Source of the DNA: an uncultured Gammaproteobacteria bacterium
GTDB lineage: Bacteria; Patescibacteriota; Microgenomatia; Daviesbacterales; UBA10151
DNA: 64,000 nucleotides
Assembly: GCA_964500725.1 (NCBI GenBank)
Contig: CAZCNP010000003.1
Span: 59,476-123,475 of the forward strand
Direction: 5' to 3'
A program made the translations under genes and the position numbers. The notes below the pieces were generated by a model, which was not told where the DNA came from, made no database searches, and was given only the letters and a program-made list of their open reading frames with translations. Within the stretch, counting starts at the first letter, position 1. The number at the start of each line of letters is the position of its first letter. This document shows positions 8,401-21,692 of this stretch, in pieces.

Positions 8401-9123
8401 TAGGACTACCGGTCGCTCGCCTCGATCTCTCTGATTAATTCCAAGCTGATTAGTTTCTGATGATTCTCCTCTAGCTCTCCTCTCTAGCGCTTCTTTTATT
8501 TTATTATATATTCTCCTCGGATCCCAAGGATCCTGTTCGTCTCTTATATTTCTTACCCTGCGAAGTGCCCTGGTGTAATCTTGTAGATCTGCATAGAGTT
8601 GATCTAGGTAAGGACCATTTCTTTCATTATATATTTCAGGCTTGCCAACTGTAGATAGCAAACCACTCACCGTGCGATATCTCTCGGTGTAAGGTAGAGT
8701 TGTTTCCAACCTAAGAATCTCCCTAACAATTGCCCTGCCTCTTTCTGGACTGGTTTCCCATTCTGGACCTCTTTCTGGACCGTTCGGAGATTCTGGACCT
8801 CTTAGCCTATCACCCTCACCACCAACGGCTCCTTGCACAGGTAAGTCATCCTCATCTGACCCTCCGCCTATGTCAGGCATTATTCTTGCTACTTCTTTAC
8901 CAGTTAACGGATCAATAAAGCTAGTTTGACCTCCTTTAAGCGGATTGCTTGTATATTCCTTCGCCCTTCTCGGATCATATCCTTCTAAAGGAAGAAATCT
9001 TTGTCTTAGAACAGAGGATTGATGAGGGCCTGTTTCTACTGGTGTATTATGGGCATGCACTCCTTGAGAACCTATTTCTGAAGATAATCCACCTTCTGAC
9101 ATATTTATTTCTATTCTAGCCAT
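5446..9123 (-). CDS. Large hypothetical protein (1225 aa), no recognisable domain
   Basis: Long uninterrupted ORF with no TM segments and no Walker motifs. The N-terminal region is low-complexity with PERGPE-like repeats encoded by four TTCTGGAC(C) copies at 8743-8799. Confidence 0.7.
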   Translation of the reverse strand: MARIEINMSEGGLSSEIGSQGVHAHNTPVETGPHQSSVLRQRFLPLEGYDPRRAKEYTSNPLKGGQTSFIDPLTGKEVARIMPDIGGGSDEDDLPVQGAVGGEGDRLRGPESPNGPERGPEWETSPERGRAIVREILRLETTLPYTERYRTVSGLLSTVGKPEIYNERNGPYLDQLYADLQDYTRALRRVRNIRDEQDPWDPRRIYNKIKEALERRARGESSETNQLGINQRDRGERPVVLPAESLNVLFEKYADDANTETVEVDMATWFKEARNFGLLDRADALFTSFYKQITQGNIPPQQVEEELTRVRDFARGSIEALLRSRRTDPRAAPLRGIAEAYSQRTCDILERMLTGERPDPIEGEFSVSENIDDEGDTQTHWRPGHWPKTYEILAKTPKQFRRAVDSFLSAVTGGRLGKSPNELYEHFNNFTQMVGQAATSENMDEGFSTALRQELQGHGFVFGGDYSFETYNMSSAHQFLMAMAMDEGPDRWIRVARSGNGAVGAYLWKFDYDPRIKLMHNPGGSRGQLLNDTVTQHYLHTEIKGILIEEGMGVVMKNYDPRDVESAAYGSNSIRVLKLEEAEQAREKAIAANLVRIGIHQPKEEFKSLYNGFDSGNAHLINYQTYRDWNDDELRTISPALRKSVIIGKVQSLLLPHDGKEKHQLIDVIDELIAQKRLTDRDKKFWEEAYDHSKANFATAFQMVGSTGEKARRGGGVFFIDRKDGNGRRFVDNIPVYEAEMFIQYVETRIKIQFANSSAEVRTKAVDQARAVAIQQLKTNGYEAKLKFGKLKFDMDKNSPNFGDVIGLDGDLEEIIDFETATDPENPLNKWLNHSYLSYQPENRHQVINPDIVQAAKRRRMRLLRPDLMIEPESEEDQHEKLADIRLILDPTLNRVPSLKDTDMPEGTGAQQAEILLSDAAVEASNYSHWRIVRELNAAFMPKDGNIFKFRTGYNLEDYSGIARFIIRMRQFVASNPKRFARRYAAELANLPLNVSSMPDQWGQVGVLGAIEMFADPVGEMSEQRLAGQFAITKWVEQMKIGNMIYGALVGHVDSEKGFSIEGLFEKPTNNSERVGKIQEILDRLEKNETGVFKDYNAEIEFMNLVLESFDRLWTVLKLVRTMESDTRNAQGALNLENKEVLKDDKPNVEILNALAKDRNTGSARHTEEQFFNAYIDWLISETEGGGGEAYPGELQWYKRLKEKTILDPKREMTRAKWLFNKMSR

Positions 9124-9271: not shown

Positions 9272-9604
9272 TTATGCAGCTTTCTGAAAAAAAGGCCTTG
9301 ATATAGAAATCATCCCTTTTGTACGACATTGACGGCCAGGGTGCACACCTCGATAACATTCAGGACATCTAGGTCTTCTCATTTTTTTTCTTCTTAACCT
9401 CTCTTTTCCTCTATCATCACCTATTGATAATAAATTGCTTTTTGTAACCTCTTGGTCAACCCCCACTCTATAAGGAAGCTTTTCTTCTTTTACATATGCA
9501 ATCAAATCTGTATTGAATCTGGGAATAAGTGGCGATACAATGCCGCAACTAACTGGCAATTTTATTAATTCTTGAGCAGCTTGAGGAATAATTTCTTTTG
9601 TCAT
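9272..9604 (-). CDS. Small basic protein with a C-terminal zinc-ribbon-like CPEC…C motif
   Basis: 110-aa ORF lying between the 1225-aa and 581-aa genes on the same strand. Its C-terminus reads 'RRKKMRRPRCPECYRGVHPGRQCRTKG'. Confidence 0.4.
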   Translation of the reverse strand: MTKEIIPQAAQELIKLPVSCGIVSPLIPRFNTDLIAYVKEEKLPYRVGVDQEVTKSNLLSIGDDRGKERLRRKKMRRPRCPECYRGVHPGRQCRTKGMISISRPFFQKAA

Positions 9605-9658: not shown

Positions 9659-11404
9659 CTAACACTGCCTTACTGCAGAGCATTTTGGACACCTCTCTCC
9701 TCTTCTTACCACACATCTTATTTCTGCCCCACAGGCTCCACATTTTATACAATAATCTTTATCTTTAGAAAACAAACCTGAAATCCCTCGAACTACATCT
9801 GAAGACAAACCACTTGTAACTGCTCCTACCCCTCCGGCAGAGAAATCTCCTGAAAAACCACAACCTACCATAACTGCCTTTACTATCATCTTGCCATAAT
9901 AATGCAATTCTTCTTGGAAACTTCTAAGAACCTCAGCCCCTTTTTGAACTGCGTTTTTAACAATTCCTATCCCTCTTTTTACAAGGTTACTTTCCGTTAC
10001 CTGCTCTCTTAGACTATCAAACTTGTTTATAACTGCTTTGTAAGCCTCTCTTACTTTTTCTGGATTAAAGAATTTAGCACAAATAGTCTCTGCATAATAC
10101 ACAATAAATAATCTACACTCCTCTAAATAATACTTAGTCTTCTCTTCCTCTGTCGCTCCTTCTTGTTTTTTAAATTCTGTTGCAAAAATCTGCTGGACGC
10201 TCCTAGTATCTGACTGATCAATATAAATAGGGTTTATTTTAAAATATAGGTCTATACTCTCCTCCATTGGAGCACTTTCTGAATTAAAGTAATTTCTATC
10301 AAGGCTGGTTGCAATTTTTTTGTACGCTTCATAATTTACCCCTGAGGCAAACCTAGTCATTACCACCACAACCTTGCCTGTAGTAGGATCAATAGTCTTT
10401 GTAAAAATATCAACGAAATTATCTGTAAATGCTGTGCCTTTTTTAAGCCCTGGTCCAGAAATAATAACTGCTTTAGACTCTAGAGGTACCTGCGGATCAA
10501 ATAATCCCTTCATTACTTTTTCCCAGCCTTTAAACTCCTCTGCCTCACGTTCGTAATCCACAAATCCCTTTTGTTTGCTATAAACCAAACCTCTTTGCAA
10601 AACCACATCAAAAGATTCTCCAGGAAATTTTGGGTTATATATTTTACCCTTGCTATCTTGGTAATAAACAACTGTACTTTCTGCTGTATGAGCCCGTTCG
10701 TATAAATGTCTTCGCTTATCTTCAATTATCCCCTGCCTTACTGCTTGCCTTTCTGCATCTGTTTTAGCACGCTCATATCTGGCTCTATCTACTGCCGGAT
10801 CGTACGCCAACCTTGGCCCTCCATATATCCCAAGCGCTTTATGCAACTGCTCAACTCTTCTTAAATCTTTACTAAAATCAATAGAACCAGATGAAGGAAA
10901 AATAGTTTTATCTTCTGCTATATTCTGTGTTATCTGGAGCTCTGCAGGGGGCGAAATTCGGTCAGCAGGTCGAGCAAGAATCAATGTGCTATCAAAAGGA
11001 GAAATTTGTTTATTTATGCTATCTAAACTTGGTAAGGTAATATCTTCATCTGATAAAGGTCTCGTATTTTCTAATGCAGAATTCAGGGAAAAAGTAGTTC
11101 TGGGTTTTACTAAAACTACAGTTGATCTCAAATCTACGTCTGGTTTAAACTTATCGCCTGGATCTACCTTAGTTAAAGTACTAATTTTTCTGGAATCTTT
11201 AAGTTTTAAACCGGTAGTTAAGGTTGTAAAATTTGGAGGTGCTTCTACTGTCATATTACTCCTGCTCGGGATAAAAATTGTGGTCGGTCTCCTGACTTTA
11301 CAGTTGCGGCACAGTCTCTGAATTACACAGAGTTCCCTTTTTGTTTCCTTTCTTGCTTTAAGACAAGACGAAACACCACAATTTGTATAATACCAGGATA
11401 ACAA
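9659..11404 (-). CDS. Hypothetical protein (581 aa) with Cys-rich N- and C-termini (zinc-ribbon-like)
   Basis: The N-terminus is 'CGVSSC…CVIQRLCRNC' and the C-terminus is 'CIKCGACGAEIRCVVRRGERCPKCSAVRQC'. No other recognisable motif was found. Confidence 0.6.
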   Translation of the reverse strand: MLSWYYTNCGVSSCLKARKETKRELCVIQRLCRNCKVRRPTTIFIPSRSNMTVEAPPNFTTLTTGLKLKDSRKISTLTKVDPGDKFKPDVDLRSTVVLVKPRTTFSLNSALENTRPLSDEDITLPSLDSINKQISPFDSTLILARPADRISPPAELQITQNIAEDKTIFPSSGSIDFSKDLRRVEQLHKALGIYGGPRLAYDPAVDRARYERAKTDAERQAVRQGIIEDKRRHLYERAHTAESTVVYYQDSKGKIYNPKFPGESFDVVLQRGLVYSKQKGFVDYEREAEEFKGWEKVMKGLFDPQVPLESKAVIISGPGLKKGTAFTDNFVDIFTKTIDPTTGKVVVVMTRFASGVNYEAYKKIATSLDRNYFNSESAPMEESIDLYFKINPIYIDQSDTRSVQQIFATEFKKQEGATEEEKTKYYLEECRLFIVYYAETICAKFFNPEKVREAYKAVINKFDSLREQVTESNLVKRGIGIVKNAVQKGAEVLRSFQEELHYYGKMIVKAVMVGCGFSGDFSAGGVGAVTSGLSSDVVRGISGLFSKDKDYCIKCGACGAEIRCVVRRGERCPKCSAVRQC

Positions 11405-11445: not shown

Positions 11446-12126
11446 TTATTTCTTAACTACACTCATACCTAATTGCTTTGCTTTCTCCTTATAAAATTCT
11501 TGCAGTTCTTTTAAAGAAAGAGGCACTAACATTTTTGGCAAATCCTCAAACTTTTCTACCTTTAGGAAGTCGCTTCCCAACCATATTAAATCTAGTTCTA
11601 TTCTGAATTTCTCTTTGACAGCATATATCAAGTCCCACAAAGTAAATTCTTTTAAAAGAAAGTACAAATCTATAAAATCTTTAACTTCATTTCTATTAAC
11701 AATAGTTTGTAATTTATTGGCAGCAATATCAAATAAACTATCTACTTGTATCCCTGAAACAGTTAATCCCTTTTTTAATCTCTTATACGGATAATAAGCA
11801 AAATCCACTTTGATTTCTACTTTATTGGCCCTAAGAAGCTCATAGATTCTAGTATATTCTCTTTGCGTGAGCCTAATCTGCAATTTTTTGAAGGCTGCTA
11901 TCTTCTGGATAAAACGGTCAGGGATATCTTTATCGAAATCAGTTTCAGAAAAAAAATCCAGATCTTCAGAATCACGATGCTTAAGATAAGCACTGCTTAA
12001 TGCTGTACCGCCAGTGAAATAAAATTGTTTAATTAATTTGTTGTTTTTAGCAAACTCAGTAAGAATGAATTTTTGCAGAGGAGTTAAAACTAAATCTTCT
12101 AGCAACAAATTATTTACTTTCCCCAT
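11446..12126 (-). CDS. AbiEii/DUF1814-family nucleotidyltransferase (second copy)
   Basis: 'FYFTGGTALSSAYLKHRDSEDLDFFSE' is the same signature seen in the 429..1103 gene. Length is 226 aa. Confidence 0.75.
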   Translation of the reverse strand: MGKVNNLLLEDLVLTPLQKFILTEFAKNNKLIKQFYFTGGTALSSAYLKHRDSEDLDFFSETDFDKDIPDRFIQKIAAFKKLQIRLTQREYTRIYELLRANKVEIKVDFAYYPYKRLKKGLTVSGIQVDSLFDIAANKLQTIVNRNEVKDFIDLYFLLKEFTLWDLIYAVKEKFRIELDLIWLGSDFLKVEKFEDLPKMLVPLSLKELQEFYKEKAKQLGMSVVKK

Positions 12127-12320
12127 ATTAGAAACTCAAATAATCTTTTTCTTGAAGGCTCAAGATTTAGATCATGCCAATGTTTTTTAACTTCTTTTAG
12201 ATCAATTTTTTCTTTATCAGAAGGATAAATCCCATAATTAATTTGTCTTTCTAAAATAAGCAGTCTGCCGCTTTTGGTTTTCTTTAACTTGTTAATATCA
12301 TAATCCCAGATAAAAGGCAT
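12114..12320 (-). CDS. Putative cognate antitoxin/partner of the AbiEii gene (68 aa)
   Basis: It overlaps the upstream end of the AbiEii gene by 13 nt on the same strand. No recognisable motif was found. Confidence 0.3.
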   Translation of the reverse strand: MPFIWDYDINKLKKTKSGRLLILERQINYGIYPSDKEKIDLKEVKKHWHDLNLEPSRKRLFEFLIWGK

Positions 12321-12484
12321 ATTAAAATTATACCACTTTTCCGTAGAAGTTTTGGAAATTTATGAACCATTATACTAAATAGGTATATTTATCTAGTTTC
12401 ATCCAGAATAGTTGAGATTGCCCATAAATGACCTAGTTTGTACCTCTAGACTATAGTTTTTTCACGAGGTATAAAGGGGATAAC

Positions 12485-13504
12485 ATGGAAGCACATCCTA
12501 TCCCGCAAAATGTGACCTCATTCCAATTTAAACTGGTTGGGGATATGACTTTAAAACAATTTGTTTATTTGGCAAGTGGTGTTGGCATGGCTTACCTAAT
12601 TTTTGTATTGTTTGCTGCCAATCTCCCTTTTATTTCTTGGCCTTTTATTATTCTTTTTACTCTGTTGGGGGTAGCTTTTGCTTTTTTACCAATAGAATCC
12701 AGGCCTTTGGATCATTGGCTGGCAGCTTTTCTGACGGCAATCTATTCTCCGACTAAAAGAATTTGGAAGAAAAATGGCAAAAATTACAAAGAAGATGCGT
12801 TATATGCAAGCCGTCTGGTGACATATTTATCAGGACCAGCAAAAGAAGCCCCTCTTGCTATAAAAACAGCAGAGACAGCTCCGCAAACTGCTGATATTTC
12901 TAAATTACCTACTAAAGAAGAGTTACAAAAAACAGTTGATTTAGCCCGCCAAGCCCAACAGCTGCAGATGAAAATAATTCAAACTGAAAGAGCTTTATCC
13001 CAAATTAAAGATCAGGCCCAAAAACCCACCCCAGTACCAATTGATTATGGCCAAGAGGTTAACAAAATCCTGACTGATTTGCAAAGCCTGGTGAGTCAAG
13101 CCTCTGTTATTAAAGAACAAATCCAATCAATTCAAAAGCCCCAAACAGGAGGAGCAAATGTGACTCCTCCACCATTTCCTAAAGAAAAAGTTAAAGTAGT
13201 TATTCCTATCAAGCCTAAACAAACTACAGTAGCTTTAACCACATTCCCAAATGTCCTCAATGGTATTGTCAAAGATGCTCAAAACAATTACTTAGAAAGT
13301 GTAGTGGCAGTTATTTACAATAAAGACGGACTGCCTGTCAGAGCTTTAAAAACCAACAAATTAGGCCAATTTACAGGATCTACCCCACTGCCAAATGGAA
13401 CCTATAACCTTGAGCTTGAAAAAGATAATTTTTCTTTTGATGTCCTGCAAATTGAACTAAGCGGGACAGTTCTACCGCCATTGATGATTACAGCCAAAAC
13501 ATAA
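12485..13504 (+). CDS. PrgI/VirB3-like T4SS membrane protein with a long coiled-coil and beta-sandwich C-terminal extension
   Basis: The N-terminus 'IPQNVTSFQFKLVGDMTLKQFVYLASGVG' plus two TM helices matches the PrgI-family start (…f.GLtlrQf…). A Pro/Gln-rich coiled coil and a ~90-aa C-terminal domain follow. Confidence 0.55.
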   Translation: MEAHPIPQNVTSFQFKLVGDMTLKQFVYLASGVGMAYLIFVLFAANLPFISWPFIILFTLLGVAFAFLPIESRPLDHWLAAFLTAIYSPTKRIWKKNGKNYKEDALYASRLVTYLSGPAKEAPLAIKTAETAPQTADISKLPTKEELQKTVDLARQAQQLQMKIIQTERALSQIKDQAQKPTPVPIDYGQEVNKILTDLQSLVSQASVIKEQIQSIQKPQTGGANVTPPPFPKEKVKVVIPIKPKQTTVALTTFPNVLNGIVKDAQNNYLESVVAVIYNKDGLPVRALKTNKLGQFTGSTPLPNGTYNLELEKDNFSFDVLQIELSGTVLPPLMITAKT

Positions 13505-13507
13505 ATT

Positions 13508-14245
13508 ATGAACACAACCCAAGGCCATCTGGCCATTGCTGACATTTTTGAAAATATCCTCATCTTAAAAGACGGTGGTGGAGCCTTGGTTTTACAAGTA
13601 TCTGCTGTTAACTTTGGCTTACTTTCATCAAGAGAGCAAATTGCCATTATTTCCAGCTTTGCCCAAATGCTAAATTCCTTATCTTTTTGTATTCAAATCG
13701 TTATTCACTCAGAAAGACTGAATATATCTTCTTACTTGCAACTTTTGGATAATGCCAAAAAAGCTCAAACCAATCCCTTACTTTCTCAGATGATCAGTGA
13801 GTATAAACAATTTATTCAAACTACTATAAAAGAAAATGATGTTTTGGATAAAAAATTTTACCTGGTTATCCCCCTTTCCAGCCTGGAACTAGGATTAACC
13901 CCTTCAAAAGAGAATTTACAACAAAAAATCAAAACTGTGCTTTTACCAAGAAGGGATCAAGTAATTAGGCAATTAAGTAGAGTTAGTCTTAGGGCCACTC
14001 AACTTACCAGACAAAAACTAATTGAGCTTTTTTATGATATTTATAATGGTGAATTTTTGGAAACCCCGGTTGTAGAGCCAGTTAACCCTGAACAACTCAC
14101 TGTTAGGCTTAATTCCCCACAGCAAAATATCGAGAAGCAACCAGTTGTAGCAGCGCCACCTCCTCCTCAAGCTGCTCAAGCAGAACCTATGATAACTCAA
14201 AACACCAGAACCCACCCTTTTGTGGTAGAGGAGCTGGAAGGGTAA
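13508..14245 (+). CDS. VirB4/ConE-like N-terminal domain segment, separated from the ATPase ORF by an in-frame TAA
   Basis: 'ILILKDGGGALVLQVSAVNFGLLSSREQIAIISSFAQMLNSL…IQIVIHSERLN' resembles the N-terminal region of Gram-positive VirB4-family ATPases. It is in the same frame as 14249..16006, with a single TAA plus one codon between them. Confidence 0.5.
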   Translation: MNTTQGHLAIADIFENILILKDGGGALVLQVSAVNFGLLSSREQIAIISSFAQMLNSLSFCIQIVIHSERLNISSYLQLLDNAKKAQTNPLLSQMISEYKQFIQTTIKENDVLDKKFYLVIPLSSLELGLTPSKENLQQKIKTVLLPRRDQVIRQLSRVSLRATQLTRQKLIELFYDIYNGEFLETPVVEPVNPEQLTVRLNSPQQNIEKQPVVAAPPPPQAAQAEPMITQNTRTHPFVVEELEG

Positions 14246-14248
14246 TTT

Positions 14249-16006
14249 ATGAATATTTTTGATAAACTTAAAAAGGCAAAACCAGTTGAGGAGGCCAAAC
14301 CTCAGTTAACCTTAGAAGATGCTATTGCTCCTTCAGAAATTGAAGTTGATTTTAAACATTTAAGGCTAAATAACCACTTTTTCAAAACCTATTTTGTGTC
14401 TGGCTACCCCAGATTTGTTGATCCAAACTGGCTAGAACCTTTAATCTCCTTTGATCACTCGCTTTTGATCTCCATGTTTATTTACCCTTCTGGCTCCCAA
14501 GGAGTCTTGGATGAGTTAAAACGTAAAATTGCTGAGATGGAAGCAACCATCCAAACAGACCTGGAACGGGGCAGAGCCATAGATCCAGCAGTTGAGGTAG
14601 CTTTGGAAGATGCCAGAGGGCTGCAAGACCAACTGGTAAGAGGGGTAGAGAGATTTTTCCAATTTGCTCTCTATATTAGTGTGCCAGCCTCATCTTTAGA
14701 TGAGCTTCGCAACACCTCAAAATTGATTGAGTCTACTTTAGCCTCACTATCTATTACTGCCAAGCAAACCACCTTACAAATGGAAAATGGTTTTAAATCC
14801 ACCCTGCCTCAAGGCACAGATTTATTAAACTTGACCCACAATATGGATACTACCTCTTTGGCAACCACTTTTCCCTTTGCTTCATCAGAGCTAACTGCCA
14901 ATGAAGGAATTATGTATGGCATCAACCAACATAATGATTCTTTAATTCTTTTTGATCGATTCAGTTTAGAGAACGCAAACTCGGTTATATTCGCCAAAGC
15001 TGGAAGCGGTAAGTCCTATTTAGTCAAGCTGGAAGCTTTGAGATCTTTAATGTTTGGCACTGAAATTATCGCCATTGACCCTGAGCAGGAATACTTGCCC
15101 TTAGCCCAAGCTGTTGGGGGAGAGTATATTAACTTTTCCCCCTCCAGCCCAGCCAGGATTAATCCTTTTGACATGTCAGGCATTGCCATCCCTGGAGAAA
15201 ATGAGCTAGGCAGAAAAATCCTCTCTTTAACTGTTTTTTTAAAGATTATTTTGGGCAACTTAACTGCCCAGGAAGCAGCCATTTTAGACAGAGCTTTAAA
15301 GCAAACTTACTATCAAAAAGGCATTACTGATGATCCTAAAACCCAAAATAAAGTGCCTCCTTTGATGGAAGACCTGTATAAAGTTTTAATTGGGATGGAG
15401 GAAGGACCTGCTATGGACTTGGCTGCCAGGTTGGAAAGATTTATTAAAGGATCTCTGGTGGGAATTTTCTCAGCTCAATCAAATATTGATCTTTCCAACT
15501 CCTTTACAGTTTTTTCAGTCAGGGATTTACCAGACCAGCTAAGACCTCTGGCTATCCATCTGATTTTGGACTATGTGTGGACCAAGGTCAGAAGCAAGCT
15601 CAAAAAAAGGATTTTAATTGTAGATGAGGCTTGGTATTTGATGAGAAACCAGGATTCTGCTGACTTTTTGGTAGATATTGCCAAAAGATCAAGAAAATAT
15701 TATTTAGGACTCACAACAATAACTCAAGATGTGGAGGACTTTTTGGCAACTGAAAGAGGCAAAGAGATTATCTCCAACTCTTCTATTCAGATCCTTTTAA
15801 AACAAGCTCCAGCTTCAATTGATTTGCTAACCCAAGTTTTTGATCTATCAGAAGGGGAACAAAGGCTTTTAATGTCTGAGGGTATTGGTGAGGGAATCTT
15901 TTTTGCAGGCAATACTCATGTGGCTATTGGTGTGGTGGCCTCCCCCAAAGAACACCAACTAATCACCACCAATCCAGCTGAAATCTTGGCAAGACAAAAC
16001 AAATAA
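14249..16006 (+). CDS. VirB4/TrbE/ConE-family type IV secretion ATPase (Walker A/B part)
   Basis: Walker A 'FAKAGSGKSYLVK', Walker B 'ILIVDEAWYL' and an upstream 'YFVSGYPRFVDPNWLEPL' VirB4 N-domain motif are present. Confidence 0.85.
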   Translation: MNIFDKLKKAKPVEEAKPQLTLEDAIAPSEIEVDFKHLRLNNHFFKTYFVSGYPRFVDPNWLEPLISFDHSLLISMFIYPSGSQGVLDELKRKIAEMEATIQTDLERGRAIDPAVEVALEDARGLQDQLVRGVERFFQFALYISVPASSLDELRNTSKLIESTLASLSITAKQTTLQMENGFKSTLPQGTDLLNLTHNMDTTSLATTFPFASSELTANEGIMYGINQHNDSLILFDRFSLENANSVIFAKAGSGKSYLVKLEALRSLMFGTEIIAIDPEQEYLPLAQAVGGEYINFSPSSPARINPFDMSGIAIPGENELGRKILSLTVFLKIILGNLTAQEAAILDRALKQTYYQKGITDDPKTQNKVPPLMEDLYKVLIGMEEGPAMDLAARLERFIKGSLVGIFSAQSNIDLSNSFTVFSVRDLPDQLRPLAIHLILDYVWTKVRSKLKKRILIVDEAWYLMRNQDSADFLVDIAKRSRKYYLGLTTITQDVEDFLATERGKEIISNSSIQILLKQAPASIDLLTQVFDLSEGEQRLLMSEGIGEGIFFAGNTHVAIGVVASPKEHQLITTNPAEILARQNK

Positions 16007-16021
16007 TGATAAGTTAAACTT

Positions 16022-18130
16022 ATGGCTGATATACACTTTTTAAATGTTTTAGAATTTGAACGGTTTAAATCGTTGCTGTCTGGAAAAACCCTAACTTTAG
16101 CAGAAAAAATTAGCGCCTTAGACACCCTGCGCGAAAAATTACCTGATTTATTTGCCAATTTAACAGCTGGACTATCACCCCAACAACTAAAAGATAATCT
16201 ATTTTTAATCAGGCATTTAACAAACTCACGCAACATAAACAAAATTAAGCTAGCTTTAAGAAAAGAATCATCCCTTTCTCCAGCCCAACAACTTGCGTTA
16301 GAACTAGCTTTGGAAGAAGCTGCTACAAAAGAACCTTTAGCAGAGCAGGCTACACCAACAGCAGCTCAAACTGAAGAAGCTCCTTTACCCTCCCAACCTA
16401 ACCCTTCTGCTTCAAGCGGATTTGGCGGGATGCCTTCTGCTGGAATGTCTTCTTCCGCCTCAGGTCGGGTTTTTGTAAAAGAAGCACCAACAAGTGGCAA
16501 GGCAGGCGGAACAGGTCAAGGAACAGCAGCCACCAATAAAATAAACCGAGCAAATGTGGGTAAAACAATCCAGTTTCCAAAAGCTCCGGCAAGTTTTGTA
16601 AACACTGCTAAAAATTTTAGCTCAAGTTCTCAGATATTTACCAAAAGATGGGGAGGCAGGATATTTAATGGGCTAACCCAAGTTGCCTTGCCTGGCGGAG
16701 CCAGCCTATTAGGCAAAACAGGACTGGGAGCTATCAATCATGGTGGAAATTTTATTAGTAATTTATCAAACACAAGGCTGCGAATGGTAAATAATATCAA
16801 AGGAGCTGGATCAGGATTGTCTTCTTCTTTGCAAGGAGGCAAAAAATTTGCCTTAGCTTCTGTCTTAGCTTTTTTTCTACTTTTAGGTATTGCTATTTCT
16901 GGAGCTACCAATGGCACTACTCCAACAAGTGAGGCTGCTCCAATTAGTACAGGTGGAACAGATATTTCCAACTGTAAATTTACCAGATCAGGCAAACCCC
17001 AACCTATCAAAAGCTCCATTCTTTCAGGCTGGATTAGTTCTACAGCAGTTTCAGCTGGAATTCCTTCGCAAATCTTGGCAGGTATTGCAATGCATGAGAA
17101 TCCAAATTTCCTTCAAACTAAAGAAAATACAGATGAAGAAATTAAAACTAACCGCTTTTGCAATTCTGGAGCAGACTTTTGTGTAAACCAGGATAAAAGC
17201 AAAAATATTCACATGGGCAAATGCACTGATGCAGAAATTGCAGCAGGCAATAGCAACGCTAGCGCTATTGGGTTAATGCAAATTGTTGATGTACATTATC
17301 CAGAAGTGGATTTATGTAATATTCAAACAAATATTGCCTTAGCAGCCCAAATATTTAAAGGCAAGCTTGGAAGCGGATCAATAAATAGTGAGGCAGATCT
17401 TAAGAAAGCTGTTTGTTTATACTATGGAGCGCAAGATGATACAGAGTGCACATATGAGGAGAAATACCACTATGGCCAAGAGGTGTGGAATGATTACCAA
17501 AACTGTCAAACTACCTCTGCTGTAGCTATTTTGCCTGCCCCTGTAAACGGGGATCACAAAAGTTGGGTAAATGGAAACTTTAATATTGATGTATCAGAAC
17601 TACCAGATCAGTATGCATTGTGGGCATACGAAGTTTTAAATGCCTCAACAAGCAAAGCTCCTAAGTTTCGAGGTCTTATTTATAACAAACCAACTAAGGT
17701 TGTCCCTGCAACAGAAGGCAGCTATACCAGTGGGGATACAATCAATATCAGAGCTGGTTATGATGCTAACTTTTTCAAACAAATATTTATTCATGAGCTA
17801 GGACACAGAATAAAAGGTGCTGCTGGAACAACTTCTCCTCAATGCGGAGGAGAAACCCTAGAACAAATACAAGATAGAGAAAAATACTTAACTTATTATG
17901 CTGAAAATGCTACTCCAGCCAATGTAAAAAGCCCTGCTTGCGGCAGCAATGATCAAGCAACCAAAAGTGATGAGGACTTTGCTGAATCCGTATCTTATTA
18001 TATTAATAATATTCCTGAACTTAATTATGGTTCAGACTGCTCAACATATGGCACAGTAAATCCCTATAATCGAACCGCCCAATCCCGTCCTTTGCATAAA
18101 GCATATATTCAGTGTCTTTTAGGTCCTTAG
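16022..18130 (+). CDS. Membrane-anchored cell-wall hydrolase, VirB1-like lytic transglycosylase domain fused to an HExxH zinc-metallopeptidase-like domain
   Basis: A Gly/Ser-rich cytoplasmic N-region is followed by one TM helix (FALASVLAFFLLLGIAISGA). The SLT-like motif reads '…AMHENPNF…AIGLMQIVD'. 'IFIHELGHRIKG' supplies an HExxH motif. The extracellular part is Cys-rich. Confidence 0.6.
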   Translation: MADIHFLNVLEFERFKSLLSGKTLTLAEKISALDTLREKLPDLFANLTAGLSPQQLKDNLFLIRHLTNSRNINKIKLALRKESSLSPAQQLALELALEEAATKEPLAEQATPTAAQTEEAPLPSQPNPSASSGFGGMPSAGMSSSASGRVFVKEAPTSGKAGGTGQGTAATNKINRANVGKTIQFPKAPASFVNTAKNFSSSSQIFTKRWGGRIFNGLTQVALPGGASLLGKTGLGAINHGGNFISNLSNTRLRMVNNIKGAGSGLSSSLQGGKKFALASVLAFFLLLGIAISGATNGTTPTSEAAPISTGGTDISNCKFTRSGKPQPIKSSILSGWISSTAVSAGIPSQILAGIAMHENPNFLQTKENTDEEIKTNRFCNSGADFCVNQDKSKNIHMGKCTDAEIAAGNSNASAIGLMQIVDVHYPEVDLCNIQTNIALAAQIFKGKLGSGSINSEADLKKAVCLYYGAQDDTECTYEEKYHYGQEVWNDYQNCQTTSAVAILPAPVNGDHKSWVNGNFNIDVSELPDQYALWAYEVLNASTSKAPKFRGLIYNKPTKVVPATEGSYTSGDTINIRAGYDANFFKQIFIHELGHRIKGAAGTTSPQCGGETLEQIQDREKYLTYYAENATPANVKSPACGSNDQATKSDEDFAESVSYYINNIPELNYGSDCSTYGTVNPYNRTAQSRPLHKAYIQCLLGP

Positions 18131-18612
18131 TTTTATATAATAAAAACATGCCTAGACTGGGATTAAAAAAATTTGGGGTAATTATAACTGCTGCAATCAT
18201 CTTGATCTCTATTTTTGGCTATAAACTGTATTCTAAACCCACTCCTCCAACAGCTCAACCTACTGCTCGACCCTCTTTCTCTCCTGGACCAAATGATCCT
18301 CCCCAGATAGTTTCTACCAAACCTGACCCTTTGAATGAAACCATTATTTCTGCTGCTGAAATTATAGAGATTACCTTTAACAGGCCTTTGGAAAATGTCG
18401 GCGAGTTCAAAAGCAGAATGGAACCTAAAATAGAATATAAAGTCGAGCTTATAAATGACCGTAAAACAGCCAGAATCATCCCAGCCAAACCTTATGAACT
18501 TGGAGCTACTTATAATCTATATATTGGCCCTGACAGCAAGTTTGATGGGGTAGGAGAGTGGAAACAAGATAAAAGCTTTCATTTTAGAACCATCCCTTAT
18601 AAAGGGGTCTAA
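18112..18612 (+). CDS. Small membrane-anchored protein (N-terminal TM, Pro-rich linker, beta-rich domain)
   Basis: 166-aa ORF that overlaps the hydrolase gene by 19 nt and is the last gene of the plus-strand T4SS-like operon. Confidence 0.4.
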   Translation: MSFRSLVLYNKNMPRLGLKKFGVIITAAIILISIFGYKLYSKPTPPTAQPTARPSFSPGPNDPPQIVSTKPDPLNETIISAAEIIEITFNRPLENVGEFKSRMEPKIEYKVELINDRKTARIIPAKPYELGATYNLYIGPDSKFDGVGEWKQDKSFHFRTIPYKGV

Positions 18613-19724
18613 CTTAGCCTGACTGGCATAATAATATACTCCAAACCTTCAACACCTACTGGTTTAACCAAAGCAGCAGAAAGAGGTCCGGAGAATTCAA
18701 TCATCAGCTGTGAAGTAGGGGAACTGGCCACAGCATCCAGTAAAAACTTGGTATTAAAAGCCACTTGTAATTGCTCACCTTCAACCTCTCCTTCGATCTC
18801 ATTTTCCTGGCTGCCCAGCTCTTTGGTATGAGACTCCAGTTTAAGCAATCCTTTATTGGTTGTTAAAACCACAATATTGGCCTCATTTTTGGCAAAAATA
18901 GCAGCCAGCTTGATCGCCTTTAACAATTCTTCTTTTTCCAATACTGCTCTGGCTATAAACTTTTGGGGGATAATTTTGCTCCAAGCAGGAAATTGCCCCT
19001 CAATTAGCCTTGAGGAAACTACAGTACTTCCTAGGGTAAAAACAATATGATTTTGATTTTTTGAGGTGGAAATACTAACTTCCTCAACATCTTCCTCAGA
19101 CATAATCCTTAAAACTTCTTCAAAGGTTCTTTTAGGAATCAGGCTTTTGAAGCGCGCTTCACCTTTTGGCAAACTAAACTGACGATGAGCCAATCTAAAA
19201 CCATCAGTAGCCACAAAATCCAGTTTGCCATCTGACATTTCAGTTAGTATTCCTGTTAACACTGGTCTGCCCTCATCAACTGCTGAAGCAAAAAGAATTT
19301 GAGATGAGGTTAAAAATGCTTCTTTGGGAAAATTAATACTGGCATCAGTGGCCAATGGGATTGCTGGAAACTCTGAGGCAGAAATTCCATTGATTGAGGC
19401 TTTTAATTTGCCTGATTGGACTGATAAGATTTCCCCTTCTGACTGTAAAGTGACTTCATTTTGTCCTAAACTGGCAATCAGTTCTACTAAAGTTTTAGCA
19501 GGAACAGTTATTTCCCCAGGCATTTGGGCATTCACCTTCAAAAACTTGATAACTCCAATTTCTAAGTTGGTGGAAGCTATTTTTAATTGCCTTTGTTTAT
19601 CTCCTGAATCTTCTATTGCTAAAAAGATATTATCTAGAACCGGGAGGGTTGATCTAATACCCACAGACCTAGCAACAGCCTGCAGAGAGGGTAGTAAATC
19701 TTGTTGTAAAATAGTAAATTTCAT
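18609..19724 (-). CDS. dnaN: DNA polymerase III beta subunit (sliding clamp)
   Basis: 'MKFTILQQDLLPSLQAVARSV…' is a typical DnaN N-terminus. The ~370-aa size and position downstream of dnaA agree. Confidence 0.85.
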   Translation of the reverse strand: MKFTILQQDLLPSLQAVARSVGIRSTLPVLDNIFLAIEDSGDKQRQLKIASTNLEIGVIKFLKVNAQMPGEITVPAKTLVELIASLGQNEVTLQSEGEILSVQSGKLKASINGISASEFPAIPLATDASINFPKEAFLTSSQILFASAVDEGRPVLTGILTEMSDGKLDFVATDGFRLAHRQFSLPKGEARFKSLIPKRTFEEVLRIMSEEDVEEVSISTSKNQNHIVFTLGSTVVSSRLIEGQFPAWSKIIPQKFIARAVLEKEELLKAIKLAAIFAKNEANIVVLTTNKGLLKLESHTKELGSQENEIEGEVEGEQLQVAFNTKFLLDAVASSPTSQLMIEFSGPLSAALVKPVGVEGLEYIIMPVRLS

Positions 19725-20176
19725 TCCGTTTCTTTTCTGGCAGAAACAAACCTATGAACTTCTTCTTCAGTCACCTTAATCAATCTAAAGTTAACCCTTC
19801 CTGAAACAATAAGATTTTTAATATGTTTTTCCTCCTCTGTCAAGATATGGAAACTGCCTGATTTAACTTCAATAAAATCAATTCGTTCATTATTTTTAAT
19901 CCCTATAAAATCAATTGGCCAACCCAAAGGGATAATCCGGTCGTAGTCATAGCGAAGCTCAGCGTAAGTTAAAAGCTCAGCCATTTTACCTTTTTGTGGA
20001 TTAATAGATCCTTGAATAGTTTGTAAAACCTTTGTTGGCAAATCTTGTACCCCTCTGTAAAGATCAATCAAATCTGTAGGAATATCTGTTTTCCCTTTAC
20101 CGTGAAGCCGACCTAGAAGATATGCAACTAAGAGTACCAATCCTAAGATCCCAGTTATCCACCAATTTATCTCCAT
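19721..20176 (-). CDS. Membrane-anchored PD-(D/E)xK nuclease-like protein inserted between dnaA and dnaN
   Basis: An N-terminal TM helix is followed by 'ELRYDYD…IDFIGI…IDFIEVKSG', an E…D…ExK pattern like YraN/NERD-type nuclease cores. Confidence 0.4.
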   Translation of the reverse strand: MEINWWITGILGLVLLVAYLLGRLHGKGKTDIPTDLIDLYRGVQDLPTKVLQTIQGSINPQKGKMAELLTYAELRYDYDRIIPLGWPIDFIGIKNNERIDFIEVKSGSFHILTEEEKHIKNLIVSGRVNFRLIKVTEEEVHRFVSARKETE

Positions 20177-20348
20177 TGTTGTAGATTATACTCTATCTTT
20201 TAAAATAGTAGTTATATTAATATGCTTGGTGGATATGTTGGTAAGTGCAAAATTCAGCTTCATTTTTTGGTAAATTTTCGTGTTTACAGCCTGTTTACAG
20301 ATAGTGGATAAATTGTGGAAAACTACCACAAGCTTGTGGATAAGTTGC
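20177..20348. promoter_or_regulatory. Candidate oriC, DnaA-box cluster plus an AT-rich stretch
   Basis: A perfect TGTGGATAA lies at 20335-20343, AGTGGATAA at 20303-20311 and TGTGGAAAA at 20314-20322. TGTTTACAG occurs twice at 20281-20300. An AT-rich segment spans 20190-20230. Confidence 0.55.
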
Positions 20349-21692
20349 TCAATTTATCATGCGCTGTTTTACCTCGGTTAACATTCTTTGCACTTCCCTA
20401 TCTGTGCTGACTAGTTTTTTCATCTTATCCCTGCCATGCATGATGGTAGTATGATCTCTGCCACCCAAGATCTGGCCGATTTTTTCCACAGTCAGTCTAA
20501 GTTCCTCAGACAAAAGATACATGGTAAGATGGCGAGGCAGCACCAGCTCTTTTTGTCTTTTGGGTCCAGTCAGATCTTTTAAGCTGACATCAAAAAAGGC
20601 GCAGATGGAAGATAAAACTTGTTTATGATCAGAAATAACAGGTTTTTTAGCAACTTTGCCTAAATAGTTGGCAATATTTTCTGGATCAGTGGATAGGTTT
20701 TGAGCTTTGAGAGCTTGAAGTATTTGTATTAGTTTTCCCTCCAGCTCTCTGGTATTTGATTCCAGAGAAGAGGCAATTAGTTTGAGTGAATCTTCAGGCA
20801 GTGTGGTGCCTTGTTGTATGCACTTTGCTCTTAAAATTGCCACTCTAGTGTCAAAATCAGGCTGTTGGATATCAATCATTAGCCCCCCAGCAAAACGGCT
20901 TTTGAGTCTGTCTTCCAGTTTAGCAATCTCTTGTGGGGGTCTATCTGAGGTTAAAATCATCTGAGAGTTTTTAGATTGCAGATCATTGAAAGTATGGAAA
21001 AATTCTTCCTGAGTTCCTTCCCTGCCAGAGAAAAACTGAATATCATCTATAAGTAAAATATCAGCCATTCTATATCTTCTCCTTAAATCCCCCATTTTGT
21101 GCTCTTGGATGGCTGCCACATAATCATTCATAAACTTTTCTGAAGAACAATAGATTACCTTTAAATTTTTTTTCTTGGCCAGCAAAGCATTACCAATACC
21201 TAACATTAGATGAGTTTTACCAACTCCTGTTCCCCCATATAAAAATAAAGGATTGTAGCTCATGCCAGGGTTTTGAATTACAGCCTGAGCTGCAGCATAA
21301 GCCACATTATTAGAAGGTCCCACCACAAAATTTTCCAAAGTATATCTAGGATTTAAAACAGCGGATACAGTTTGGGCTGGTTGAAAAAAACTGTCTTCAT
21401 CTTCTTGAGTATTTTGTTCTGAGGCTTCTATTTCTTTGACAATAAATTCTACTTTAATTTCCCTGCCCAATAGCTCAGAAAAGGTCTTCTCTATTAAAGG
21501 AAGATGTTTTTGGTTTAATGTTTCTTTGGCAAAAGCATGAGGAGTGGAAATTATGATTTTATCTTCCTCTAATGATTTAAGTAGAGTTCTAGAAAAGAAA
21601 GTTTTGAAGTTAGCAGTGCCAATTGTAGGTTTTATTATTTCTAAAAATTTGTGCCAGAGGCGTAGGTTGTCCATTGTGGATAAGTTATCCAC
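20349..21692 (-). CDS. dnaA: Chromosomal replication initiator protein DnaA
   Basis: Walker A 'GGTGVGKTHL' with AAA+ and C-terminal DNA-binding regions. The ORF as listed begins with GTG; an ATG seven codons in may be the true start. Confidence 0.9.
   Translation of the reverse strand: MDNLSTMDNLRLWHKFLEIIKPTIGTANFKTFFSRTLLKSLEEDKIIISTPHAFAKETLNQKHLPLIEKTFSELLGREIKVEFIVKEIEASEQNTQEDEDSFFQPAQTVSAVLNPRYTLENFVVGPSNNVAYAAAQAVIQNPGMSYNPLFLYGGTGVGKTHLMLGIGNALLAKKKNLKVIYCSSEKFMNDYVAAIQEHKMGDLRRRYRMADILLIDDIQFFSGREGTQEEFFHTFNDLQSKNSQMILTSDRPPQEIAKLEDRLKSRFAGGLMIDIQQPDFDTRVAILRAKCIQQGTTLPEDSLKLIASSLESNTRELEGKLIQILQALKAQNLSTDPENIANYLGKVAKKPVISDHKQVLSSICAFFDVSLKDLTGPKRQKELVLPRHLTMYLLSEELRLTVEKIGQILGGRDHTTIMHGRDKMKKLVSTDREVQRMLTEVKQRMIN

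What the first reader, a model, noticed from the sequence alone, without database searches (positions are those of the whole stretch)
13508..16006. VirB4-family ATPase interrupted by an in-frame TAA
ORFs 13508..14245 and 14249..16006 are in the same reading frame, separated only by TAA-TTT. The upstream 245-aa product (…LKDGGGALVLQVSAVNFGLLSSREQ…) looks like the extreme N-terminal region of ConE/Orf16-type VirB4 proteins. The downstream 585-aa ORF carries the central VirB4 motif and Walker A/B. The combined 830 aa matches long Gram-positive VirB4s. I see three possibilities: a genuinely split gene, a pseudogenised ATPase (hence an inactive system), or a sequencing or assembly error.
Basis: partly seen in the sequence, partly recalled or inferred. 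Interest (0 to 1): 0.55.

Follow-up and report, generated by a model that had tools for sequence, protein, structure and literature searches.

The report
Naturally two-gene VirB4 secretion ATPase
The "interrupted" secretion-system ATPase is not broken: in this group of ultra-small bacteria (Patescibacteria) it is normally encoded as two adjacent genes, a small TrsD-like N-terminal piece and the ATPase body, and this arrangement has already been published.

Summary
ORF2 (13508-14245, 245 aa) and ORF3 (14249-16006, 585 aa) share a frame and are separated by TAA-TTT. Together they cover one VirB4.

The split is ancient and functional, not a lesion:
- All 60 species-level relatives (Daviesbacteria, Microgenomates, Beckwithbacteria, WWE3) keep two ORFs. 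All three relative frames occur; 27 of 60 have an ATGA overlap and only 6 of 60 are in frame.
- The best 120 homologues of ORF2 are stand-alone proteins of 235-278 aa.
- dN/dS against a 93%-identical relative is 0.056.
- Seven independent assemblies carry an identical junction.

So pseudogene and sequencing error are rejected, and the shared frame is coincidence. ORF1 to ORF4 are all in one frame.

ORF2 is a TrsD/"TraC-like" (PF26593) protein: a VirB4 N-terminal subdomain, a disordered linker, and a conserved C-terminal HPFVVEEL peptide. The locus (PrgI, TrsD-like, VirB4, putative hydrolase, next to dnaN and dnaA) matches the Patescibacteria T4SS described in PMC12102498.

Fused versions (738-897 aa) exist in Amesbacteria-type relatives, which argues that the two products work as one unit.

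Verdict: already known, low interest. The tail motif and the fused/split switching are minor additions.

The parts
12485..13504 (+). ORF1: PrgI-family (VirB3-like) membrane protein of 339 aa, with a weak carboxypeptidase-regulatory-like C-terminal domain. First gene of the operon.
   Evidence: Pfam PF12666 PrgI, E 7e-9, 36.5 bits against a cut-off of 27. A PrgI gene occupies the same position in the three relatives whose gene maps were read: the independent assemblies of this locus (L061 and others), split L071 and fused L072.
13508..14245 (+). ORF2: TrsD-like / 'TraC-like' (PF26593) stand-alone protein of 245 aa. It is the detached N-terminal subdomain of VirB4. Folded domain about aa 1-180; disordered Pro/Gln-rich linker aa 181-235.
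   Evidence: NCBIfam hits: conju_CD1110 positions 26-169, VirB4_plasma positions 131-276, TrsD/TraD profile positions 16-200 of 201. Precomputed PF26593. AF2 model with Foldseek: the top 14 hits are all TrwK/VirB4. 1994 homologues found, and the best 120 are all 235-278 aa. dN/dS 0.056.
14213..14236 (+). Conserved C-terminal peptide HPFVVEEL (aa 236-243 of ORF2), at the end of the variable linker.
   Evidence: Invariant in alignments A1 and A2. Matches HPF[V/I/L][V/I/L]EEL in 46 of 61 loci, with freely varying synonymous codons, so the constraint is on the protein.
14243..14248 (+). Junction: TAA stop of ORF2 plus a 3-nt spacer TTT, directly before the ATG of ORF3. A purine-rich stretch GGAAGGG lies at 14236-14242, 6 nt upstream of the ATG (possible ribosome-binding site).
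   Evidence: Sequence read directly. Identical in 7 independent assemblies, and TAAtttATG is also present in the 93%-identical relative L068.
14249..16006 (+). ORF3: short-form VirB4 ATPase of 585 aa. It holds the second N-terminal subdomain plus the RecA-like C-terminal ATPase domain. Walker A at 14993-15016, Walker B at 15611-15628.
   Evidence: conju_CD1110 positions 182-733, E 1e-114. Pfam P-loop_TraG, AAA_10 and DUF87. PDB 4AG5 VirB4 C-terminal domain, E 5e-46; TrwK residues 445-741 align with ORF3 residues 243-548. Walker motifs.
16022..18130 (+). ORF4: 702-aa protein. It occupies the position of the VirB1-like cell-wall hydrolase of these systems. It contains the motifs GLMQIVD and HELGH. 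The assignment is inferred only.
   Evidence: No Pfam, NCBIfam or PDB hit. A large ORF sits in the same position in relatives; in L072 it carries Peptidase_M23. PMC12102498 reports peptidase and lysozyme homologues directly downstream of virB4.
18609..21692 (-). Context: dnaN (18609-19724), a Holliday-junction-resolvase-like ORF (19721-20176) and dnaA (20349-21692). The T4SS operon lies next to the replication-origin region.
   Evidence: Pfam hits. The same dnaN/dnaA neighbourhood is seen in L071 and L072 and is described for Microgenomatia in PMC12102498.

Best explanation
ORF2 and ORF3 are two real, separately translated genes that together supply the VirB4 ATPase of a chromosomal, origin-proximal Patescibacteria type IV secretion system.

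ORF2 is a TrsD-like protein. It provides the first, membrane-proximal subdomain of the VirB4 N-terminal domain. In solved Gram-negative systems that domain contacts VirB3, which here would be the PrgI protein encoded just upstream.

ORF3 provides the second N-terminal subdomain and the hexamer-forming RecA-like ATPase domain.

The genes are packed in one operon with a 3-nt spacer, which suggests termination-reinitiation coupling and roughly matched synthesis. The two products then associate non-covalently to rebuild what related bacteria make as a single 738-897-aa chain.

The disordered linker and the conserved C-terminal HPFVVEEL peptide of ORF2 probably act as a tether or docking motif, either for ORF3 or for another component of the machine.

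Shown here: the split is ancient, conserved and under purifying selection; ORF2 plus ORF3 is collinear with full-length VirB4; natural fused forms exist.

Inferred: physical assembly of the two products, the contact with PrgI, translational coupling, and the role of the tail.
For: 1. Collinearity. ORF2 covers positions 26-169 and ORF3 positions 182-733 of one VirB4 profile. TrwK residues 445-741 align with ORF3 residues 243-548. The ORF2 model hits only TrwK/VirB4 before scores collapse (14 hits, probability 0.93-1.0).

2. A natural fused relative, P0160 (787 aa), models at pLDDT 82. It superposes on full-length TrwK with TM 0.73 over about 800 columns (E 1e-31). Its junction reads ...FFNSY, then a 12-70-aa linker, then IAPQSIxVDF. 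That is collinear with the end of the ORF2 domain and the head of ORF3.

3. Conservation of the split.
- 60 of 60 species-level loci have two ORFs.
- Relative frames are 38, 16 and 6.
- 27 loci have an ATGA overlap.
- All three stop codons are used.
- The best 120 of 1994 homologues are 235-278 aa.
- 149 of the 150 best 50%-identity cluster representatives lack the ATPase.

4. Selection. dN/dS is 0.056 at dS 0.65, and it is low in both the domain (0.04) and the linker plus tail (0.12).

5. Not an artefact. The junction is identical in 7 assemblies from separate sequencing runs.

6. Interchangeability. Among the 120 best hits to P0160, 43 carry the N-terminal domain (738-897 aa) and 77 lack it (493-667 aa, plus 9 intein-bearing forms). 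Split locus L071 and fused locus L072 share the same synteny and are 88% identical over the ATPase part.

7. Literature. TrsD homologues, which have remote homology to the VirB4 N-terminus, are the most abundant T4SS component next to virB4 in Patescibacteria. The TrsD homologue is essential in Ca. S. epibionticum, and the locus often lies near dnaA (PMC12102498). VirB4 N-terminal domains contact VirB3 and VirB8 and the membrane (PMC12857230).
Against: - No direct evidence that the ORF2 and ORF3 proteins bind each other; a complex prediction could not be run.
- The stand-alone ORF2 model is only moderate (mean pLDDT 62, domain about 70), and its Foldseek E-values are weak (3e-3).
- Sequence searches of ORF2, or of its family profile, against PDB did not reach TrwK.
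- The NCBIfam TrsD match (32.8 bits) is far below the curated cut-off of 200.
- The tail motif is specific to the Daviesbacteria-type lineage. It is absent from other split forms such as L071, so it cannot be a general requirement for a split VirB4.
- The ribosome-binding site and the coupling are read from sequence only. The promoter and terminator scan was at chance level.
Confidence: 0.9

Rival explanations
1. Pseudogene: a recent nonsense mutation cut a formerly single VirB4 gene, leaving an inactive secretion system.
For: The two ORFs are in frame and separated by a single stop plus one codon. Fused full-length relatives exist elsewhere in Microgenomates.
Against: - The stop follows a conserved natural C-terminus. 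All 60 related species have two ORFs, in all three relative frames.
- dN/dS is 0.056 for ORF2 and 0.07 for the head of ORF3 against a relative at dS 0.65-1.2.
- ORF3 has its own ATG, intact Walker motifs and a full-length match to the profile.
- The fused forms lack the long linker and tail that ORF2 carries, so ORF2 plus ORF3 is not a fused gene with one substitution.
Confidence: 0.01
2. Sequencing or assembly error created the TAA.
For: None beyond the general possibility in a metagenome-assembled genome. Raw reads could not be inspected.
Against: Seven Logan assemblies from separate runs carry ORF2 with 0 nucleotide differences and the identical gggTAAtttATG junction (SRR12113424, SRR12113429, SRR12113433, SRR12113430, SRR12113385, SRR12113383 and SRR4343430). 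A 93%-identical relative also has TAAtttATG.
Confidence: 0.01
3. Programmed recoding: stop-codon read-through here, or frameshifting in relatives, produces a fused 830-aa VirB4 in addition to the two separate products.
For: The frame is shared and the spacer is only 3 nt in this genome and in its closest relative. Fused proteins are functional in related lineages.
Against: - Relatives would need a different recoding event depending on the locus, because the relative frame differs: 38, 16 and 6 of 60 loci fall in the three possible frames, and gaps range from -89 to +182 nt. No single recoding mechanism could be conserved.
- All three stop codons are used.
- From general knowledge of E. coli, not tested here: TAA followed by T is a strong terminator context.
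- No recoding signal was looked for or found.
Confidence: 0.03
4. ORF2 is an independent paralogue. It descends from a VirB4 N-terminus but now acts as a separate adaptor or regulator, for example recruiting substrates or another partner through its HPFVVEEL tail, and is not an integral part of the ATPase.
For: - Many family members carry very long disordered tails (up to about 400 aa) with lineage-specific terminal motifs (HPFVVEEL, LPPLPEI), which is typical of adaptor proteins.
- TrsD homologues in Gracilibacteria are often not adjacent to virB4.
Against: - ORF3 lacks the first roughly 180-200 residues that every full-length VirB4 has.
- Fused and split forms alternate among close relatives with the same synteny.
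- Tight coupling (ATGA overlap) is the commonest arrangement.
Confidence: 0.08

Closest known systems
TrsD plus VirB4 pair of the Patescibacteria T4SS (Quinonero-Coronel et al. 2025, Microb Genom, PMC12102498)
   Same: The same phylum, and the class Microgenomatia is covered by that study. The gene order matches: a PrgI/VirB3-like gene, a TrsD homologue directly upstream of virB4, a hydrolase downstream, and the locus next to dnaN and dnaA. That paper states that TrsD shares remote homology with the VirB4 N-terminal portion.
   Different: Nothing essential. Points added here, which turned up in none of the sections of that paper I read or searched:
- the junction statistics (27 of 60 ATGA overlaps);
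- dN/dS;
- the conserved HPFVVEEL tail on a disordered linker;
- the fused clade in Amesbacteria-type genomes.
TrsD/TraD plus TrsE/TraE of staphylococcal conjugative plasmids pGO1 and pSK41 (NCBIfam NF041427; MPF-FATA subclass pGO1)
   Same: A small stand-alone protein of about 200 aa, homologous to the VirB4 N-terminus, encoded just upstream of a shortened VirB4-like ATPase. ORF2 aligns over positions 16-200 of the 201-position TrsD profile (E 6e-8).
   Different: - The score of 32.8 bits is far below the family cut-off of 200, so ORF2 is a distant relative and not an equivalog.
- The system here is chromosomal and origin-proximal, in a Patescibacterium.
- ORF2 has an extra disordered linker and tail motif.
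- I saw no relaxase in the ORFs I scanned, but this was not tested systematically.
Full-length monoderm VirB4 (CD1110 family, PrgJ, TcpF, ConE, Orf16) and R388 TrwK/VirB4
   Same: ORF2 plus ORF3 is collinear with the CD1110 profile (26-169, then 182-733). The fused relative P0160 superposes on TrwK at TM 0.73. Walker A and B motifs and the C-terminal domain fold are shared (4AG5, E 5e-46).
   Different: Two polypeptides here instead of one. ConE, Orf16 and TcpF sequences themselves were not aligned; only a weak match to the TcpF profile was seen.
Fused VirB4 of Amesbacteria-type Microgenomates (P0160, P0273 and others, 738-897 aa)
   Same: The same synteny (PrgI, VirB4, large hydrolase-like gene, dnaN). 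Both the PF26593 N-terminal domain and the ATPase are present. Identity over the ATPase part: 65% to ORF3, and 88% to the split relative L071.
   Different: A single chain with a short linker of 12-70 aa, no HPFVVEEL tail and no internal start.

Membership tests
VirB4/TraC/CagE T4SS ATPase (tested on ORF3) | P-loop NTPase domain with Walker A and Walker B motifs | tested here: met
   AKAGSGKS at aa 249-256 and ILIVDE at aa 455-460. Pfam P-loop_TraG, E 6e-24.
VirB4/TraC/CagE T4SS ATPase (tested on ORF3) | Profile match above the curated cut-off, and homology to a solved VirB4 C-terminal domain | tested here: met
   NCBIfam conju_CD1110: 384.5 bits against a cut-off of 325. PDB 4AG5: E 5e-46.
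VirB4/TraC/CagE T4SS ATPase (tested on ORF3) | Complete N-terminal domain in the same polypeptide (about 750-830 aa) | tested here: not met
   ORF3 starts at profile position 182 of 752 (CD1110) and 207 of 792 (TIGR00929). The missing part is encoded by ORF2.
TrsD/TraD, or Pfam PF26593 'TraC-like' (tested on ORF2) | Stand-alone protein of about 200-250 aa encoded immediately upstream of a shortened VirB4 | tested here: met
   Window and 60 of 60 related loci.
TrsD/TraD, or Pfam PF26593 'TraC-like' (tested on ORF2) | Match to the family profile | tested here: inconclusive
   NCBIfam NF041427: E 6e-8 over positions 16-200 of 201, but 32.8 bits against a cut-off of 200. PF26593 is recorded as a precomputed hit for the identical protein P0001. 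The local Pfam copy did not return it.
TrsD/TraD, or Pfam PF26593 'TraC-like' (tested on ORF2) | [quoted passage not shown] | tested here: met
   CD1110 positions 26-169 and VirB4_plasma positions 131-276. Foldseek top 14 hits are all TrwK/VirB4. The same domain is found fused in 43 relatives.
Patescibacteria-clade chromosomal T4SS (PMC12102498) | virB4 with PrgI/VirB3-like and TrsD-like genes adjacent, near dnaA and dnaN | tested here: met
   ORF1 is PrgI. dnaN and dnaA lie at 18609-21692. The identical protein is named as from Candidatus Daviesbacteria.
Patescibacteria-clade chromosomal T4SS (PMC12102498) | No relaxase or coupling protein in the cluster | not tested
   Only the ORFs between 2082 and 21692 were scanned, and none matched a relaxase or VirD4. 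The remaining 42 kb of the window was not examined.
Pseudogene (disrupted VirB4) | Relaxed selection, a lineage-restricted stop, and an intact single ORF in close relatives | tested here: not met
   dN/dS 0.056. The split is present in 60 of 60 species. The closest relative, L068, has the same stop.

The most novel reading that the evidence does not exclude
The split may have a purpose beyond tolerated fission. In the Daviesbacteria-type lineage the detached VirB4 N-terminal subdomain carries a disordered tether that ends in an invariant HPFVVEEL peptide; other lineages end in LPPLPEI. That peptide could be a short docking motif that controls when and where the N-terminal subdomain joins the ATPase body, or that recruits another partner. 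VirB4 assembly would then be a regulated step in these epibiotic bacteria. The repeated switching between fused and split forms in Microgenomates would offer natural experiments to test this.
Probability: 0.2. Interest if true: 0.4.

Novelty: already known. Interest (0 to 1): 0.14.

Why it matters
For annotation, the two ORFs should be called as two intact genes, a TrsD-like protein and a short-form VirB4. They should not be flagged as a pseudogene or merged. The T4SS of this Daviesbacteria genome should be scored as intact.

For biology, the result adds small details to a published picture: tight coupling of the two genes, strong purifying selection, a lineage-specific C-terminal peptide, and easy switching between fused and split forms. 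The switching is 'Rosetta-stone' evidence that TrsD is a working part of VirB4. TrsD still has no assigned function, although its homologue is reported essential in a cultivated Saccharibacterium.

Tried and rejected
- **PDB sequence searches for ORF2.** The single sequence and a 50-sequence family profile gave only chance-level hits (DciF and a prenyltransferase, E >= 0.02). The link to VirB4 therefore rests on NCBIfam profiles and on fold comparison.
- **Read-through model.** I tried to model the ORF2-ORF3 read-through product. The aligner refuses a translation containing a stop, so I modelled the natural fused relative P0160 instead.
- **Internal duplication.** The ORF2 domain and the N-terminal domain of ORF3 show the same order of secondary-structure elements. 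Protein comparison failed. A local hhalign run gave probability 0.7% and only an 11-residue match, FYLVIPLSSLE against LYISVPASSLD. The idea is not supported at the sequence level.
- **Promoter and terminator scan, 12100-18700.** Counts equalled the shuffled expectation, so no conclusion follows.
- **Plasmid relatives.**
  - A tblastn of ORF2 against the plasmid collection found 65 weak hits at 23-33% identity.
  - The 'TrsD'-annotated region of the B. thuringiensis plasmid pBMB0558 is fragmented and uninformative.
  - The S. aureus plasmid hit is a fused gene of about 834 aa.
- **Guglielmini 2014 (PMC4027160).** The main text does not contain the word TrsD. The statement on TrsD-VirB4 homology is therefore cited from PMC12102498.
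- **Neighbouring large ORFs.** Pfam and NCBIfam scans of 3589-5418, 5446-9123, 9272-9604 and 9659-11404 found nothing.
Full report
**1. The observation**

- ORF2 is 13508-14245 (245 aa) and ends GGG TAA at 14243-14245.
- TTT follows, then the ATG of ORF3 at 14249. ORF3 ends at 16006 (585 aa).
- The two ORFs share a reading frame (741 nt apart).

The shared frame is not special.
- ORF1 (12485-13504), ORF2, ORF3 and ORF4 (16022-18130) are all in one frame.
- The ORF1/ORF2 junction, TAA-ATT-ATG, has the same form as the ORF2/ORF3 junction, TAA-TTT-ATG.

**2. What the two ORFs are**

Against NCBIfam:
- ORF3 matches the monoderm VirB4 profile conju_CD1110 over positions 182-733 of 752. E is 1e-114 and the score is 384.5 bits, above the cut-off of 325.
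- ORF2 matches the same profile over positions 26-169. It also matches a second VirB4 profile (VirB4_plasma, 131-276 of 894) and the TrsD/TraD profile over nearly its whole length (16-200 of 201, E 6e-8, but below the curated cut-off).

The two ORFs therefore cover contiguous parts of one VirB4.

Further evidence on ORF3:
- Walker A is AKAGSGKS (aa 249-256) and Walker B is ILIVDE (aa 455-460).
- It matches the crystal structure of a VirB4 C-terminal domain (4AG5, E 5e-46).
- TrwK residues 445-741 align with ORF3 residues 243-548.
- About 240 residues of ORF3 lie upstream of the ATPase domain, roughly 200 fewer than in TrwK.

Further evidence on ORF2:
- An AlphaFold2 model gives a folded domain at about aa 9-180 (pLDDT about 70) and a disordered stretch at 181-238.
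- Foldseek against PDB returns TrwK/VirB4 chains as the top 14 hits (probability 0.93-1.0, E from 3e-3). After these the probability falls to 0.41 or less.
- Sequence-only searches of PDB did not reach VirB4.

**3. Is the split real, old and functional?**

*Homologue lengths.*
- A search of 5.8 billion proteins found 1994 homologues of ORF2. The best 120 (63-100% identity) are all 235-278 aa. They carry Pfam PF26593 ('TraC-like') and come from Candidatus Daviesbacteria, Microgenomates and other Patescibacteria.
- An exhaustive search of 50%-identity cluster representatives found 1649 relatives. Of the best 150, only one (P0160, 787 aa) also contains an ATPase.

*Related loci.* I fetched 60 loci from different species: Daviesbacteria, other Microgenomates, Beckwithbacteria and WWE3. 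In every one, the ORF2 and ORF3 homologues are separate ORFs.
- The relative frame is +2 in 38 loci, +1 in 16 and 0 in 6.
- 27 loci have the 4-nt ATGA overlap typical of translationally coupled genes.
- Gaps range from -89 to +182 nt.
- Stop codons used are TGA (37), TAA (18) and TAG (5).

A recent nonsense mutation cannot produce this pattern. The in-frame arrangement in the window is one chance variant among many.

*Selection.* Against the closest diverged relative (L068, 93% amino-acid identity, the same TAAtttATG junction), ORF2 has dN/dS of 0.056 at dS 0.65. The value is 0.04 in the domain and 0.12 in the linker plus tail. The first 66 codons of ORF3 give 0.07.

*Artefact check.* Seven assemblies made independently from separate sequencing runs contain ORF2 with zero nucleotide differences and the identical junction.

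The pseudogene and sequencing-error readings are therefore rejected.

**4. Anatomy of ORF2**

- The alignments show a well-conserved domain (aa 1-181). It is followed by a Pro/Gln-rich linker that varies in length and sequence.
- After the linker comes an invariant C-terminal peptide, HPFVVEEL, with 0-3 further residues before the stop.
- The pattern HPF[V/I/L][V/I/L]EEL is matched in 46 of 61 loci. Synonymous codons vary freely at most of its positions.
- The constraint is therefore on the peptide. It is not only on the GAGGAG stretch, which could also serve as a ribosome-binding site for ORF3.
- More distant family members have tails of up to about 400 disordered residues.
- One lineage ends in LPPLPEI. 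Others have no recognisable terminal motif.

**5. Fused relatives**

- P0160 and 42 other proteins (738-897 aa; one cluster is named Candidatus Amesbacteria by its source) contain the TraC-like domain joined to the ATPase body.
- In the same hit list, 77 close relatives lack the domain. They are 493-667 aa, plus nine intein-bearing proteins of 1158-1215 aa.
- In the fused proteins, the last helix of the N-terminal subdomain (...FFNSY) is followed by a 12-70-aa linker. Then comes (D)IIAPQSIEVDF, which corresponds to LEDAIAPSEIEVDF at residues 22-35 of ORF3.
- An AF2 model of P0160 (pLDDT 81.8, pTM 0.73) superposes on full-length TrwK/VirB4 of the R388 system. TM is 0.73/0.72 and E is 1e-31.
- Split locus L071 and fused locus L072 have the same gene order: PrgI, (TraC-like), VirB4, a large ORF, a small ORF, dnaN.
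- L071 and L072 are 88% identical over the ATPase part and 66% over the N-terminal subdomain.
- In L071 the two genes overlap by ATGA. The fused form differs by a short indel that removes the stop/start overlap.

This easy switching is Rosetta-stone-type evidence that the two products act as one unit.

**6. Mechanism (inferred)**

- In solved Gram-negative systems, the VirB4 N-terminal domains link protomers, embed in the inner membrane and contact VirB3 and VirB8 (PMC12857230).
- By analogy, ORF2 would be the membrane-proximal and PrgI-proximal piece. ORF3 would be the motor.
- The 3-nt spacer and the purine-rich GGAAGGG 6 nt upstream of the ORF3 ATG fit coupled translation.
- The tethered HPFVVEEL peptide is a candidate docking motif. 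Its partner is unknown.
- A conserved read-through or frameshift product is unlikely, because relatives would each need a different recoding event.

**7. Comparison with what is known**

- The arrangement is published. Quinonero-Coronel et al. 2025 (PMC12102498) report TrsD as the most abundant T4SS component found in Patescibacteria.
- They found 2272 homologues, 1664 of them next to virB4. No function is assigned, and the homologue is essential in Ca. S. epibionticum.
- They also describe the PrgI/VirB3 neighbour, the peptidase and lysozyme genes downstream, and the closeness to dnaA and dnaN in Microgenomatia.
- The prototype is TrsD-TrsE of the staphylococcal plasmid pGO1.
- The window's locus fits all of this: PrgI, TrsD-like, VirB4, a 702-aa ORF, a Big_5-domain ORF, dnaN and dnaA.

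**8. Verdict**

'Interrupted', 'pseudogenised' and 'error' are not.
- The feature is an ordinary, already described two-gene VirB4 of Patescibacteria.
- Minor additions from this work are the junction statistics, the strength of selection, the conserved tail peptide and the fused/split switching in Microgenomates.
- Interest is low.

Noticed in passing
window 12485-18130: Four consecutive genes (PrgI, TrsD-like, VirB4 and the 702-aa ORF4) all lie in the same reading frame. Their spacers are 3, 3 and 15 nt. The ORF1/ORF2 junction (TAAattATG) mirrors the ORF2/ORF3 junction (TAAtttATG).
   Followed up: partly
window 11446-12320 (- strand): An AbiEii-type nucleotidyltransferase toxin (226 aa, PF08843, E 1e-17) has a small overlapping upstream ORF of 68 aa, a likely antitoxin. 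The pair lies directly upstream of the T4SS operon and is transcribed away from it. The same pair appears in the independent assemblies L061 and L062.
   Followed up: no
L001, L002, L012, L022, L023, L025, L027, L029, L035, L036, L040, L041 (ORF2/ORF3 intergenic region, about 5730-5920 in each locus): In about 15 of 60 related species the gap between the TrsD-like gene and virB4 is 66-182 nt. It contains short AT-rich, near-tandem repeats, for example 'atttacgatttacgaat', 'aatttacaatttacaatttacaat' and 'tagtcgctagaatctagtc'. These could be small inserted repeat elements or regulatory sequences.
   Followed up: no
proteins P0308, P0309, P0312, P0318, P0319, P0360, P0362, P0371, P0387: Nine short-form VirB4 homologues from Microgenomates are 1158-1215 aa. 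They carry intein-splicing and LAGLIDADG homing-endonuclease domains (PF14890, PF14528), so these are inteins inserted in VirB4.
   Followed up: no
window 13508-14062 compared with 14249-14884 (models): The ORF2 domain and the N-terminal domain of ORF3 have the same order of secondary-structure elements: three strands, helix, strand, two helices, strand, helix, strand, helix. This hints that the VirB4 N-terminal domain is an ancient tandem duplication and that the split falls between the two repeats. hhalign found no significant sequence similarity (probability 0.7%).
   Followed up: partly
window 16022-18130: ORF4 (702 aa) has no Pfam, NCBIfam or PDB sequence hit. It does contain an SLT-like motif, GLMQIVD, and a zincin motif, HELGH. 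It sits where relatives have a Peptidase_M23 protein (L072), so it is probably the cell-wall hydrolase of the system.
   Followed up: partly
window 3589-5418 (+), 5446-9123 (-), 9272-9604 (-), 9659-11404 (-): Large ORFs next to the T4SS operon (609, 1225, 110 and 581 aa) have no match in Pfam or NCBIfam. They may be divergent T4SS or surface components, such as VirB6-like proteins or adhesins.
   Followed up: no
proteins P0195, P0209, P0221, P0228 and others: Some TrsD-like family members carry disordered, low-complexity C-terminal tails of 300-400 aa that end in a conserved LPPLPEI(K) peptide. This is a different terminal motif from the HPFVVEEL of the Daviesbacteria-type lineage.
   Followed up: partly
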